Of a stretch of DNA of 64,000 nucleotides, positions 13,101 through 20,600 are shown one piece after another. Positions within the stretch are counted from its first letter, which is position 1. The number at the start of each line of letters is the position of its first letter. This DNA is from Stylophora pistillata (taxonomy: Eukaryota): the NCBI RefSeq assembly GCF_002571385.2, contig NW_019217841.1:503933-567932 (forward strand), read 5' to 3'. The notes under the pieces were generated by a model, which made no database searches, was not told where the DNA came from, and saw only the letters and a program-made list of their open reading frames with translations. A program made the position numbers and the translations under genes.

Positions 13101-16100
13101 CATATATGCAATCAAAATGGAATTTCCTTTCAGTTCAAAGAAAGGTCATTCGGAAGGCGCTGTGATCTAGAAATTTCTTTATTTGGAAACAACAGTTTTC
13201 ATTCCAAGCCAATATCGAAATATCATGCAGCTAAAAATATTGATTTACCGACACGTTTACGTAAACGGAAACGCGAAAATAATGTATTTGCGTTGGCAGT
13301 TTTTATTTTGTTAGGTATGGCCTCAGTATTTATAGTCGGACGCAGAAACCGCCTGGACCACGTAAACTGGCGGTTTGTCGGCGGGCAGTGACAGTAGAAA
13401 AAAAACTCTCTTGGTAGAAAGTATAAATAGGCGAAGAAACAACAGAAACAAGGATTGGAAAAAAAAAAAAAAAAAGAAAAAGAAAATATTAGATTTCTCT
13501 GTTCTTAGCGAAGAAGTCGAAAACCTTCCATAAATAACATAGACTTAAAGTACATTTGGGTACATAATTTGTAAAACTGTTGACACTTTACCCTACGTGT
13601 GCAGAGGACATTCTTTTTTTAAGCAGGAGTATTGTTCGCGCAAACCTCAGAGGTATAGAAATATAAGTTCATCCAAAGTAACCCAACCTTGGGCAGCGTG
13701 TTTGAGCGTGGTCTTCTGTGAGTGTATCACTGAAACTAGTCATTTATTGCGGGGGTTTGACTAAGGGACCACTCCTTATTTCCTTATTTATCGTATATAG
13801 AAGGGGGGGGAGGAGGATTTTTAGGGGATCACATGGGGTCCAGGGAGAACGGAGGGAGATCATTCGTCTCTAATAGAGATTAAAGGAGGTGTTATAAAAA
13901 ATTGACTTCCGATGCGGGGGGATTATCAAAGTACTACAGAGCCTTATGGGTAGGGGGGGGGAGGGGGAAGAACCGGGAAATGTTACTGTGACACAACAAC
14001 AAAAATCCTCTGGTTCTCCTTCCCCCGACAATATATAATAATGTGCTCCTACAGTATGTAGTATTACAAAATTTTCGCTGTATATGGTTGCATCTTTCCG
14101 GCAATAGGAAGAAAGATGTGACGATTTTATTGCGCTTTGAAGTTATGCGCGCAACACATATTAATTAAAGGTGCACTTTAATTAATATGTTAGTTACCAT
14201 CCCCTGTCTTCCCAGTCTCTATCTACATACCATAATAAGCTGAGGAGGTGGGCTGTCGTCTTCACGGCGCCTGACATCAGAGTTCTCACCCCAGACTTCT
14301 CTCACCAAAGGACTCTGTGGACTGGTAGCAATCAGAGCAAACTCCGTCAGCAAAGTTACTTCTTCTGTGAGTAGATTCAGAGCAGGGGGAACAGTGCGAG
14401 GCTTTTCAGGCATTTGTGAGGAGTTTTCTAAATATTAAAGAAAAACAAGGTTTAATAAAATAAAAAATAAAGAACAATATTTCGATCATGAAATTGAACG
14501 CATTTTATTGTTTCCCACTTGAAACTTTGTCAGCAAAGACAGATCCCCTCTCAGCTCCCCCTGAAAACCATGTGATTCCTCCCCCCCCCCCCAAATTCTC
14601 CGACTCCATCCCAGACGATAAATAGTAACTCGGGTCTCTAATCTTCAATGACTCGCGATCGTGATACGAAAAACCAAATGATTTACGGCAGTTTCGCGCT
14701 AAACCTTCGTGAATACCAAATGTCTGAATGCAGCAGGCTGACGGGTGAATACCAAATGTCTACATGCAACAGGCTGACGGGTGAATACCAAATGTCTAAA
14801 TGCAACAGGCTGACGGGTGAATACCAAATGTCTACATGCAACAGGCTGACGGGTGAATACCAAATGTCTAAATGCAACAGGCTGACGGGTGAAAAAACAA
14901 AAACAAAAAAACAAAACAAAAAGAGAAACACTGATAGCGTTAAAATTTTATTCCTGTTTTGAGGACTGGTCATAAAATGCCGAATTCGATGACTGAGGTC
15001 ATCAAAAAAGCAATTTCTTAATAAAAATGTCATAATCTAAAGCTAACTGTTATTGATTAAACTTTGGTAACAATGCACTCTTTATTTATGGGTAGTTTGA
15101 ACATCAAAACTGAAAATAAAAGATTATCAAGCATAAAAATTTTCGAAGAATACTGGTTACACAGCTTACATACGCTTTTATCGTATTATCGTGAGTTGTC
15201 ATGCAACTTGTAGTAACTTAGCTGCAGCTGATTCCATCCTAATGAAAAATATTGAACATTTTTCATGAGTGTGGTATGAAAAAAGGGCTCAAACTTCATT
15301 TCACGTTCAGATGCTCTATCAGTTGAGCATAAAAGATTTCGTCAGCGAGCCGCAAGTAAAACACTTGGTTTGTAACAATAACAATGACAATATTTGTTTA
15401 TTTCCACCATTTGCAGATCTCTCTAAATTACTGGTAGAGTCAGACACTACACTCACAAACATACAAATATACGTGTATTTAAGTATACGTGTAATTATAT
15501 AAATATAAATGTAGTATAGTAACAATGCGAAATACGCCCTGCATATTGCTAAAACCTATCGTTTACCATACTTTGCTTTATTAGCCTCCGCACGCTTTTT
15601 AATGATGAATAGCCGATTTTGAATGATGTGACCAGACCACGATCATTTAGTTCCAGCGAAACTAGCTTTCTAAACAATTACTTGCGAAAAACGAAAAATT
15701 TCTGAGACAATAAAAATTGTAGCACAATCACTATTCAAACAGCAAGTGAGTACATTTTTTTGTATACGTGCAATGGCATGCCCCAAATTAAAATACAGTC
15801 ATCTACACTTGACTGTTTATTCTAACCTAAGTTCACACTGCTTCAAAGCATCTGAGTGGACATGGGCCGGAACGCGTTTAAGGAGAGAATCAGTTGCGAA
15901 ACTTAATTTTAAAGTGTAAAGTCGTCTTCCACTCGAAGTTTTTGATTGAAGCGCTGTGGCCTGTTTTAACTTAATTTCTGTGTTTCTGTATCAAAGAATG
16001 AATTAACTTTAGGCATTTTATTGTCTCAGGAATTTACTCGGTCGCAAATATCAGCCAGGCTGAAAATTCAACTGAAAGAAATTGTTTTCCCCAACGTAAA

Positions 16101-17651: not shown

Positions 17652-20600
17652 CCCTCAGGAACAAAATTAACCAGGAATCACTAAAAACGAGAAAAAAAAT
17701 TTCCACAGATAAGTTCAAGACGTGCCTCACCTACGGCGAGCGAAACCTAAATGAAGGAGGGGTTCTATTTCCTATAGTAAACAACCTAACTATGGAAAGC
17801 AAGTTTTGACCGGTCATATACTTTGGAAAAGCCCAGAATATTTGCATTTATTTTCACCGAAATAAAGATTTGATTTAATCCCTCGCCAGACTGTTAGCCA
17901 GACAGTAATATAATATGTGTTTACGGGAATTTTTTTTTATCACGACAAATTCAGAGATGAATGAAAATCGGTTTAAAAACCAATCCGCGATACTTCTATC
18001 AGCAAATTCTGGAACATTTACGTACTTAAAACAACAAACATTCAACTTCTAATTTTGACGGGATTAGTGGTTTTATATCGGCCAACTTTCATATCAGCGA
18101 TGTGTCCAAATGATTTATAGTTTCCTGGAATACGTACTAACCGTTATTATTTTAGTCTTAAATGTAAATAAAGACGGCAGTTCTCTATCGCTCAAAATTA
18201 GAAAATCGCACCACAAAATCGCTCCGCAAAATCTGAGAGCTCGAGGCCAGAATTCTGGCAGAAAACGTAGATTTTTTCTTAATACCTTATAATTGAAAAA
18301 AGGGTTCACGTCTTTTATCATTTGGTGACTGAGCTGAAAATTTTGTGAGCCATGTTCTTCTATAGTTTTGAGAAACCCTTCAACAGTCAAATTAAAACTA
18401 AACTGCCTTTACATCAGCCCTCGTTAGCAAGTACACTGCGTTACGCATGAGAAATAACAAAGCTGTAAATACAACCTAATCGGCTAGCTAATACATCTAA
18501 AGTTGTTCAACATTTTTCGATACGTTTCACTTTTGAACTAAAACCGCCTCTTTAGTAGAATTTTATTCCGTATGGCAAAACGGAAACAAAAATTCCTTAT
18601 CGGCGTTAGTTTCACGCGACCCGCCACAAGATCTGATTAATGAAATCGCCCAACACGAGACAATGACCACACTATGAAGTAAACTTTAAAGAATGCTTAC
18701 CACCTGAGCTTCGAGTTTGACAGTAGATATAATCAGTCAAAGGAAAGAAAAATTCACTTGGAAAATCCCACTCGAAATTTGAAAGGTTTGATGACGTTAT
18801 AAAGTTCGAGTTCCGTTCAGCGAAGTTTTGTCAATTCGACGCATTCCTTTTCGATAATTACTTCATACTTATGCTGACAAATCAGTTTTACTTTCAATTT
18901 TCATTATGCGGTTCGGCGCATCATATTTGATAATTTACCTGAAGGTTTTACTAGAGAATTTTATAAATCTGTGATAAAACTTCGAATCGGTACTAAGGGC
19001 TTTTCAAATACTGGGCAAGATTTGACAAAACTTCGCGATATTTTAGAGATCCCTTATGCAAAATACAGTGCTTGTCATGAGTAACTTAACAACTTTGAGA
19101 GAGAGTATACAAAGAAAACAGTAAGGAAAACTTAAGTCTATCGTTGCCACAGAAGGCAAAGTCTTCTGTTTTAAGACAATGCAAATTTAGTCAAATGAGA
19201 AAACCTCTGAAATAGGGAAGTTTATGAATGTGCGTTTACAACGTCTAGTGCGAAAAAACAGTTGAACCAAAGAGGAAATACAACATTTGAAACTACGCCA
19301 AACCTGAAATTGATCTTGTAAGGATGAAAATCTTCGTTCCACTCTGAACAACTTGAACCAACACGAGAAGAATAAGATAAGAAACTCAAAGATTAACAGC
19401 CAAGGTGAACTGCACCGAGACAGCGAATCATGATTCGAAAAACCGCAAGTTATCGGAACGAGTCCGTTCAGACCACTTCGGTTTTTCCTTGCGCAATTAG
19501 ACTATTGTTCCTGAAATGGACTTCCTGGAGCGAAGTGCAATGAAATATTAAAGATTTTTCAAGTGTTTCCATGGCAGTACGCCTCCATTTCCACGCTGGT
19601 TCAGTTGCGTGCCGGTTGGGTATTTTTTGGTTAGATATTAGATATAAATATTGCTTAGATTTTGGAGCAATGAACAAACTTGTTTCCTCCGAGAAACTGG
19701 TACATTTTCGTCAAAATTGTCCTGTTCAGAATTTAACAAATTTTATTATGCCAATGGCAAGTTTGTTTGCCAACTCTTGATTATCTTTCACCTTAATCTT
19801 AAAAAAGCTTTTCACTGTTAAAGTTTCACTTACGCAAATGAGGCGGAGCGCATCAACATGAGAATTAAATGTTTTGAAACCAAATTCAAAATTTTGTCTC
19901 TACATATACAATTGGAAATAAGTCCATAAAGATATGAGTGTTAAACCTTGTATCATGCATGGTTAACTGATGTAGTTGGCCGCCTACGGCAAATTAAAGT
20001 TCTTAGGTCTTCAAAAGTTCATTTACGATACAATCAAATTCAGAAGTTTGTAGACTAAACTTAGAGGCCTAGACATCGATTCATTTTTTCAGTTTCACCA
20101 TTGATTATAACGAAACACTTCTCATAAGGGAACAATTGTAAGACAAAATATTTCAAAAATACTTCGGCGTCTAAACTGCAAGATGTTTCTTCAAATAGTT
20201 GCGGTTCTGACCGTGTGGTCAATTAGTAAGTCTTCGATTTACGAGTGTTCGTCAGTCAACCGCAAAACATTCATCAACTTTATGAGTATACAAGAAAACT
20301 GAATCAAATTGGTAATGCATTATATGCAATGCCAGTTTTTTCAGTTTGAAAGAGCTGAAGTAGAGCATAAAGCAAGGAAAGCCAAGTAACTTGTCGTCGT
20401 GAAAACGCCGTGTATCGCAATAAGATGCAACTTTTTGACGAATTACGATCTCAATCGAAACCATTGTTTCGGAAACAAGTGCATGCAACCATAAATCTGC
20501 ACATCTTGTCATTTTTTACGAAACTGAAAGTCGCTTAGGTAAATTCCCCTTGACGATATCACAGTCTAATTTCTGTAAACAAGCAGTTTTTGTTGTGCAG

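What the first reader, a model, noticed from the sequence alone, without database searches (positions are those of the whole stretch)
14231..17680. HBP1 orthologue with an N-terminal C2H2 zinc finger, a domain architecture not known for vertebrate HBP1
Seen: exon 17498-17651 encodes MQPIKERQIKPYQCKHCPKSFKSSNGLKYHLDKVH (C-x2-C-x12-H-x4-H). It has in-frame stops upstream of the ATG, an AG acceptor at 17681-17682 and a phase-1 donor (AAG|gtatga) that joins in frame to the HBP1 exon at 14427 (E-NSSQMPEK...IATSPQSPL). Established: human HBP1 has AXH + HMG but no zinc finger, and the NGLKYH finger resembles Sfp1/JAZF1/ZNF608-type fingers. Inference: a ZnF-AXH-HMG protein, either ancestral or lineage-specific. 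The internal ATG at 14413 could give a finger-less isoform.
Basis: partly seen in the sequence, partly recalled or inferred. Interest (0 to 1): 0.7.

Follow-up and report, generated by a model that had tools for sequence, protein, structure and literature searches.

The report
Coral HBP1 keeps ancestral zinc finger
This coral gene makes the growth-restraining transcription factor HBP1 with a zinc finger at its front end, a part that many other invertebrates share and vertebrates lack, so it is likely the ancestral form of the protein rather than a coral oddity.

Summary
Real, but not coral-specific. The finger exon is spliced to the HBP1 exons in 7 of 7 RNA runs laid; no skipping joint was listed. 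The spliced 428-aa protein is identical to a RefSeq Stylophora pistillata HBP1-like protein. Among 43 named proteins from outside the jawed vertebrates, 20 (hemichordates, priapulid, annelid, nemerteans, bryozoan, brachiopod, molluscs) carry two tandem fingers, 11 (corals, anemones, crinoids) carry only the second, and 12 carry none; 0 of 90 jawed-vertebrate-type rows have a finger. The finger is therefore most likely ancestral to cnidarians plus bilaterians and lost several times. Function is inferred: probably a protein-docking finger on a Sin3-recruiting repressor. One speculative lead (about 0.3): the vertebrate RB-binding LxCxE motif may be a relic of finger 1. It scores above chance in jawed vertebrates but not in lamprey, hagfish or amphioxus. 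The scan's earlier findings held nothing on this gene.

The parts
24182..24375 (-). Alternative non-coding first exon B (21-codon upstream ORF, out of frame)
   Evidence: Contig of run X2 joins 24182->17680, GT..AG; uORF
19304..19502 (-). Non-coding first exon A (12-codon upstream ORF, out of frame)
   Evidence: 3+3 raw reads and contigs of X5, X7, X8, X13 join 19304->17680; uORF
17498..17680 (-). Zinc-finger exon: 29 nt of UTR, start codon at 17651, 154 coding nt, phase-1 donor
   Evidence: Sequence; spliced on both sides in RNA
17547..17612 (-). C2H2 finger, residues 14-35, equal to finger 2 of the bilaterian pair
   Evidence: Pfam PF00096 26.5 bits as isolated exon; scores 41.7 bits on the finger-2 profile and 18.2 on the finger-1 profile, corals not in training; predicted two strands and helix 24-38, pLDDT 85-88
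14231..14427 (-). Coding exon with internal in-frame ATG at 14413 and the conserved helix-plus-SP motif (about 14306-14350) shared from sponge to ape
   Evidence: RNA joints
12294..12560 (-). Coding exon, first half of the AXH domain
   Evidence: PF08517 76.9 bits, residues 153-271; Foldseek best match human HBP1 AXH 3qve
11656..11912 (-). Coding exon, second half of the AXH domain; lacks the Glu of the IxCxE motif seen in most bilaterians
11518..11575 (-). Small coding exon for the Sin3-interaction helix (SID)
   Evidence: 11 of 16 residues identical to the ape HBP1 segment; sole PDB match is the HBP1 SID peptide 1s5r, E 0.065
10982..11160 (-). Coding exon, start of the HMG box
   Evidence: PF00505 60.2 bits, residues 344-408; RNA joints
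10712..10853 (-). Coding exon, rest of the HMG box and the basic WKRKR tail
   Evidence: Foldseek 2e6o, 60% identity
9701..10172 (-). Last exon: stop codon ends at 10140, 3' UTR to at least 9701
   Evidence: (X5 contig)

Best explanation
This is the coral's HBP1 gene, spliced into a 428-residue protein with a zinc finger, an AXH domain, a Sin3-binding-type helix and an HMG box, and the finger is likely an ancestral part of HBP1 that probably docks a partner protein rather than reading DNA sequence. Shown: exon structure, splicing, domain order, identity to a RefSeq protein, and the same finger in anemones and, as the second of a tandem pair, in six bilaterian phyla plus hemichordates. Inferred from vertebrate HBP1: the HMG box binds and bends target DNA and the SID helix recruits Sin3/HDAC to repress. 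Inferred from distribution (about 0.85): the finger was present in the cnidarian-bilaterian ancestor and was lost separately in chordates, arthropods and sea urchins, with decaying copies in crinoids. Inferred from anatomy (about 0.55): the finger binds one conserved protein or chromatin partner, as proposed for the lone Sfp1-like finger of d4/DPF proteins. The coral protein has neither RB-binding [LI]xCxE motif, so it likely does not use the RB pocket.
For: Splicing in 7 of 7 RNA runs, DNA control unspliced. Identity to XP_022783477.1. AXH, HMG and SID match HBP1 structures best. Census: 20 two-finger, 11 one-finger, 12 finger-less of 43 named rows; 0 of 90 jawed-vertebrate-type rows. A quick tree of 63 rows keeps anthozoans, vertebrates and ambulacrarians as groups (SH-aLRT 97, 99, 98), with finger-bearing rows in several of them. 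For a non-reading finger: a single finger, about 310 residues of mostly low-confidence linker plus AXH away from the HMG box, pTM 0.36; helix positions -1, 3 and 6 are Ser, Gly, Tyr in 36, 35 and 34 of 36 distinct finger-2 sequences (the pattern used required Asn-Gly/Asp at 2-3), whereas 14 of 1664 background fingers end in GLxYH. PMC11678306 (passages read) argues that the lone Sfp1-like finger of d4 proteins serves protein binding and is likewise skipped or lost across animals.
Against: No binding data of any kind. Bilaterians have a tandem pair preceded by a basic stretch, which could contact DNA; ZNF512B, with paired C2HC/C2H2 fingers, binds DNA and oligomerises through them (PMC11602157, passages). 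Absences rest on protein models, not genomes: Lingula, Ptychodera and Actinia first appeared finger-less until a longer isoform was fetched, so Sycon, Xenia, Orbicella, Diadema, amphioxus and arthropod absences may be incomplete models. The tree is the quick one, deep branches are open, and Sycon and Xenia are misplaced. 19 of the 20 two-finger rows were in the profile's training set, and the second search profile was built from finger-bearing proteins.
Confidence: 0.6

Rival explanations
1. Same gene and history, but the finger is an auxiliary DNA-binding module that works with the HMG box, as the C-clamp does in invertebrate TCF proteins; vertebrates lost it and with it part of the target specificity.
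For: Classical fold predicted; basic residues before and in the finger; tandem pair with a short linker and an upstream basic stretch in bilaterians; near-invariant helix. Precedents: TCF C-clamp (PMC3896468, abstract start in a search listing only); DNA binding by ZNF512B finger pairs (PMC11602157, passages).
Against: One finger in corals; Gly and Tyr at positions 3 and 6 are rare among background fingers (134 and 59 of 1664); far from the HMG box with no predicted packing, whereas the C-clamp lies next to its HMG box (recalled).
Confidence: 0.3
2. The finger is a degenerate, nearly functionless leftover in corals after loss of finger 1.
For: Lost or decayed in several lineages; finger-less isoforms annotated in four species.
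Against: The core of the finger is almost unchanged between corals, anemones and bilaterians while the flanking linker diverges; the exon is included in every RNA joint seen.
Confidence: 0.06
3. The finger is a coral- or cnidarian-specific exon capture, or an annotation artefact joining two genes.
For: Sponge (Sycon) and soft-coral (Xenia) models have no finger; the coral finger ends in His, the bilaterian finger 2 in Cys.
Against: Direct RNA joints; same finger, same place, in hemichordates, priapulid and spiralians, 38-46 bits on a profile trained without cnidarians.
Confidence: 0.04

Closest known systems
Vertebrate HBP1 (HMG-box transcription factor 1; PDB 3qve, 1v06, 2e6o, 1s5r)
   Same: AXH, Sin3-interaction helix, HMG box, basic WKRKR tail and the conserved N-terminal helix-SP motif, in the same order.
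   Different: Coral protein has an N-terminal C2H2 finger and neither [LI]xCxE motif; the ape protein has two such motifs and no finger.
Invertebrate HBP1-like proteins in RefSeq/GenBank (Saccoglossus, Priapulus, Owenia, Lineus, Lingula, Mya, Patella and others)
   Same: Same finger at the same place, already in database models, with zf-C2H2 hits precomputed for several.
   Different: They carry two tandem fingers, the second ending in Cys (C2HC); corals and anemones have only the second, ending in His.
d4/DPF proteins (DPF2, PDB 3iuf) with their single Sfp1-like finger
   Same: Lone finger in a chromatin regulator; best single-finger PDB match (28.7 bits); skipped in isoforms and lost in some lineages (PMC11678306, passages).
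   Different: Other domains unrelated; the match is hardly above generic C2H2 level, so kinship of the fingers is not shown.
TCF/LEF proteins with a C-clamp
   Same: HMG factor with a second small module that is general in invertebrates and restricted in vertebrates (PMC3896468, abstract start in listing).
   Different: The C-clamp is not a C2H2 finger and lies C-terminal, next to the HMG box (recalled); its DNA binding is shown, whereas nothing is shown for the HBP1 finger.

Membership tests
HBP1 orthologues | AXH domain of HBP1 type | tested here: met
   PF08517 76.9 bits vs cut-off 33; Foldseek ranks HBP1 AXH (E 3e-9) above ataxin-1 AXH (5e-5)
HBP1 orthologues | C-terminal HMG box closest to HBP1 rather than CIC, BBX or SOX | tested here: met
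   60% identity to 2e6o vs 43% to CIC, 32% to BBX; groups with HBP1 rows in the quick tree
HBP1 orthologues | Sin3-interaction helix between AXH and HMG | tested here: met
   11 of 16 identical to the ape segment; only PDB match 1s5r, E 0.065; binding itself untested
HBP1 orthologues | Two RB-binding [LI]xCxE motifs (a feature of the mammalian protein) | tested here: not met
   No match in the coral protein up to residue 372 and none in whole P0001; two matches in the ape protein. The N-terminal one appears only in chordates, so it does not define the wider family
HBP1 orthologues | Sequence-specific transcriptional repression | not testable with these tools
   Needs reporter or chromatin assays
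Classical C2H2 zinc finger | C-x2-C-x3-F-x5-L-x2-H-x3/5-H pattern and beta-beta-alpha fold | tested here: met
   Pattern in sequence; PF00096 passed by the isolated exon; predicted strands 12-13 and 20-21, helix 24-38, pLDDT 85-88
Classical C2H2 zinc finger | Zinc binding | not testable with these tools
   Needs metal analysis of the peptide
Kruppel-type DNA-reading arrays | Three or more tandem fingers with canonical linkers | tested here: not met
   One finger in the window's gene; no finger-1 match elsewhere in the window's six frames; two in bilaterians
Sfp1/DPF/JAZF1/ZNF608-type fingers | Gly-Leu-x-Tyr-His helix end, and closer likeness to these fingers than to generic ones | tested here: inconclusive

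The most novel reading that the evidence does not exclude
Ancestral HBP1 was a zinc-finger/AXH/HMG factor, and in the chordate line finger 1 did not simply vanish: its collapsed remains were recycled into the LxCxE motif by which vertebrate HBP1 binds the retinoblastoma protein. A five-residue deletion in finger 1 plus one change gives the jawed-vertebrate LxCxE-x-L-x-SSPG stretch, and 4 of 26 invertebrate finger-1 sequences already spell LxCxE across their first zinc ligand. This would be a traceable case of a folded zinc finger turning into a tumour-suppressor docking motif.
Probability: 0.3. Interest if true: 0.72.

Novelty: new variant of a known kind. Interest (0 to 1): 0.38.

Why it matters
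HBP1 is studied almost only in mammals, as an RB- and Sin3-linked brake on proliferation. The ancestral protein evidently had a strongly conserved zinc-finger module that mammals lack, and lacked the N-terminal RB motif that chordates have. That changes how results carry between mammals and invertebrate models such as Nematostella, and gives a clean, testable question: what does the finger bind, and did RB docking replace it? The coral gene alone is ordinary in the databases; the comparative picture, which the searches here did not find in print, is the modest gain.

Tried and rejected
Cassette-exon model via the AG at 17655/17654: no RNA joint uses it. Finger-less coral isoform: no joint from either first exon to 14427 listed in 7 RNA runs; depth was low (raw reads about 2 in 100 of each run) and contigs drop rare forms, so this is not absence; leaky scanning cannot be seen in RNA. 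Hidden finger-1 exon in the window: none above noise. Second copy of the finger exon in the genome: 1 match at E<=0.001 of 138 candidates scored, the window's own. A finger-bearing vertebrate paralogue: divergent two-finger hits proved to be gastropods. Finger-only search with a hemichordate query returned 6 proteins of 8 candidates, all HBP1-like architecture, too narrow for a census. Atlas feature search gave generic C2H2 clusters only. My first gene model had the HMG junction wrong and was corrected from RNA. The careful tree did not finish; only the quick tree is cited, 3 of 66 rows dropped for lack of an HMG pattern and about 15 rows less than half filled. Relic test against: profile-profile probability only 6.6% (P 0.0055); an urchin control reached 26 of 1000 with an unrelated stretch. 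No complex prediction was run, since no partner is claimed. Primary HBP1 papers and the 2019 review were not held.
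Full report
Observation. The gene lies on the minus strand. The exon 17680-17498 holds an ATG at 17651 preceded by in-frame stops, a C-x2-C-x12-H-x4-H finger at 17612-17547 and a phase-1 donor, and the next exon starts at 14427 in the matching phase. RNA settles the link. The joint 17498->14427 is read by 16 reads in X23 and 21 in X24, and by a contig in each of X5, X8, X2, X7 and X13: 7 of 7 RNA or RNA-guessed runs laid, from 6 studies, out of 24 runs listed. 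The eighth run laid, X15, covers the region unspliced and serves as DNA control. Two non-coding first exons, 19502-19304 and 24375-24182, both splice to 17680. With the RNA-defined junctions all introns are GT-AG and the product is 428 aa, identical to P0126, which the collection names XP_022783477.1, HMG box-containing protein 1-like of Stylophora pistillata. So the protein is already in RefSeq, under a name that does not mention the finger; in the whole protein the finger scores 22.5 bits, under Pfam's cut-off of 25.2, and passes only as an isolated exon (26.5 bits).

Identity. AXH (76.9 bits) and HMG box (60.2 bits) pass Pfam. The predicted model matches HBP1's own AXH and HMG structures best. 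A short exon encodes a helix with 11 of 16 residues identical to the ape HBP1 segment, whose only PDB match is the HBP1 Sin3-interaction peptide 1s5r (E 0.065). The basic WKRKR tail, described as a nuclear signal and as a WDR26 degron in mammals (PMC5249219 and PMC7616709, passages), is present. AlphaFold gives the finger two short strands and a helix at pLDDT 85-88, joined to the rest by low-confidence linkers, pTM 0.36. The finger exon has one match in the genome, its own.

Distribution. A full-length search gave 444 proteins, of which 120 were listed; a profile search listed the best 150 of 39,938; 20 further proteins were named by look-up. I scored 43 named proteins from outside the jawed vertebrates, taking the longest isoform where several were held, with profiles for finger 1 and finger 2. 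Twenty carry both fingers: 3 hemichordates, Priapulus, Owenia, 2 nemerteans, Watersipora, Lingula and 11 molluscs (19 of these 20 were in the training set). Eleven carry finger 2 only: 9 hexacorallian proteins, including Nematostella and Actinia, at 38-46 bits, and 2 crinoids at 12-20 bits; none of these was in training. Twelve carry none: Sycon, Xenia, a short Orbicella model, 2 Diadema, amphioxus, 4 cyclostomes, 2 arthropods. Of 90 jawed-vertebrate-type rows (80 named, 10 unnamed and fish-like), none has a finger. The coral finger is finger 2 (41.7 against 18.2 bits); it ends in His where bilaterian finger 2 ends in Cys. Presence in cnidarians, protostomes and deuterostomes at the same place makes an origin before their split the simplest reading, with losses in chordates, arthropods and urchins. 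Caveats: absences rest on protein models, and three species looked finger-less until a longer isoform was fetched; the tree is a quick one with open deep branches. Whether cnidarians lost finger 1 or bilaterians duplicated finger 2 is open; both end in the same Gly-Leu-basic-Tyr-His helix.

Isoforms. RefSeq holds finger-less isoforms in Pocillopora verrucosa (370 aa, an exact suffix starting at the Met equivalent to ATG 14413), Actinia, Ptychodera and Lingula. In this coral no joint skipping the finger exon was listed in 7 runs; a skip from either first exon would start at 14413.

How it most likely works. From vertebrate HBP1 (established; the primary papers were not held, so partly recalled): the HMG box binds DNA and the SID helix recruits Sin3 through PAH2 (PMC10163088 and PMC1557813, passages). 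For the finger I favour a protein-docking role (about 0.55 given a function): it is single in corals, far from the HMG box, and has Ser, Gly and Tyr at helix positions -1, 3 and 6 in 36, 35 and 34 of 36 distinct sequences (partly selected by the pattern), while 14 of 1664 fingers from 69 unrelated multi-finger proteins end in GLxYH. The nearest analogy is the lone Sfp1-like finger of d4/DPF proteins, argued to serve protein binding and also skipped or lost across animals (PMC11678306, passages); DPF2 is the best single-finger PDB match but only marginally. The rival, an auxiliary DNA grip like the TCF C-clamp or the ZNF512B finger pairs, stays at about 0.3. All of this is inference; no binding was tested.

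RB motifs and the relic idea. Mammalian HBP1 has two RB-interaction motifs and is listed as an LXCXE partner of pRB (PMC5249219 and PMC2082274, passages); the ape protein has exactly two [LI]xCxE matches, one N-terminal and one in AXH; that the N-terminal match is the tested motif is recalled, not read. The coral protein has neither. The N-terminal LxCxE is in 72 of 88 vertebrate N-termini examined (6 of 94 rows lacked the anchor motif and were dropped) and in amphioxus, and in none of the 12 non-chordate finger-less or one-finger proteins checked. In jawed vertebrates it is followed by L-x-S-S-P-G, in register with the second Cys and helix start of finger 1. Scanning all 31 ten-column windows of both fingers against shuffled N-termini, ape, teleost, skate, gar and lungfish reached 3, 7, 10, 15 and 36 of 1000; lamprey 312, hagfish 508, amphioxus 696; controls urchin 26, tick 117, sponge 900. 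Holding the LxCxE and its +2 hydrophobic residue fixed, the remaining five columns were matched in 7-17 of 20,000 draws for four jawed vertebrates, 296 for lungfish, and 1844-16,939 for amphioxus, hagfish and lamprey. Profile alignment placed the match with a five-residue gap, P 0.0055 but probability 6.6%. Four of 26 finger-1 sequences spell LxCxE across their first Cys. Against: jawed vertebrates count as one lineage; I noticed the match by eye before testing; the earlier-branching chordates, which should be closer to the finger, do not show it; and a +2 hydrophobic residue and downstream phosphorylation or acidic sites are ordinary parts of LxCxE motifs (bioRxiv 10.1101/2022.06.10.495386, passages). 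I put it at 0.3.

Novelty. Ten full-text searches were run; those aimed at an HBP1 zinc finger or invertebrate HBP1 returned no title or abstract start that describes it; I saw listings only for these, most subscription papers are outside the library, and the 2019 HBP1 review was not held. No supplements were consulted. The scan's own index had no look-alike sequence and nothing on HBP1. The architecture is plain in public protein models, several with zf-C2H2 hits precomputed. Verdict: a real, expressed, probably ancestral architecture of a known factor, seemingly undescribed but easy to find; a new variant of a known kind, interest 0.38.

Noticed in passing
window 24633-26915, + strand: A spliced plus-strand transcript (joints 24633->26501 in one run, 26548->26744 in four) begins about 260 nt from HBP1 first exon B, head to head; likely a shared two-way promoter. 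Gene not identified.
   Followed up: no
window 19431 and within 24182-24375, - strand: Each alternative 5' UTR holds one short out-of-frame upstream ORF (12 and 21 codons) that ends before the main ATG.
   Followed up: partly
window 14306-14350 and proteins P0206, P0096: A helix-plus-SP motif after the finger is kept from the sponge Sycon to apes, with a PP-x-L-x-L motif before it in most invertebrates; no function found in the passages read.
   Followed up: no
proteins P0198, P0210, P0219, P0225 (Pomacea, Elysia, Bulinus): These gastropod models keep both fingers and the HMG box but appear to lack AXH, and their HMG boxes are divergent; judged by eye and pattern, not scanned with Pfam.
   Followed up: partly
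window about 14710-14890: About five copies of a 36-nt tandem repeat in the intron behind the finger exon.
   Followed up: no
window 26060-26270 and 15370-15530: Short high-copy repeats; many unrelated contigs pile up there.
   Followed up: no
window 39445-41980, - strand: Two long overlapping ORFs (287 and 565 aa stop to stop) in different frames without a passing Pfam match; they look like a frameshifted DNA-transposon gene by eye.
   Followed up: partly
window 46696-46959, - strand: Exon with a Rad4/XPC beta-hairpin domain 3 (PF10405, 40 bits); part of a likely XPC gene.
   Followed up: partly
window 58626-59789 (-), 61012-61818 (+), 62872-63657 (+): A single-ORF serpin (PF00079, 413 bits) and two tandem single-ORF CECR6/TMEM121-family genes (PF14997).
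   Followed up: partly
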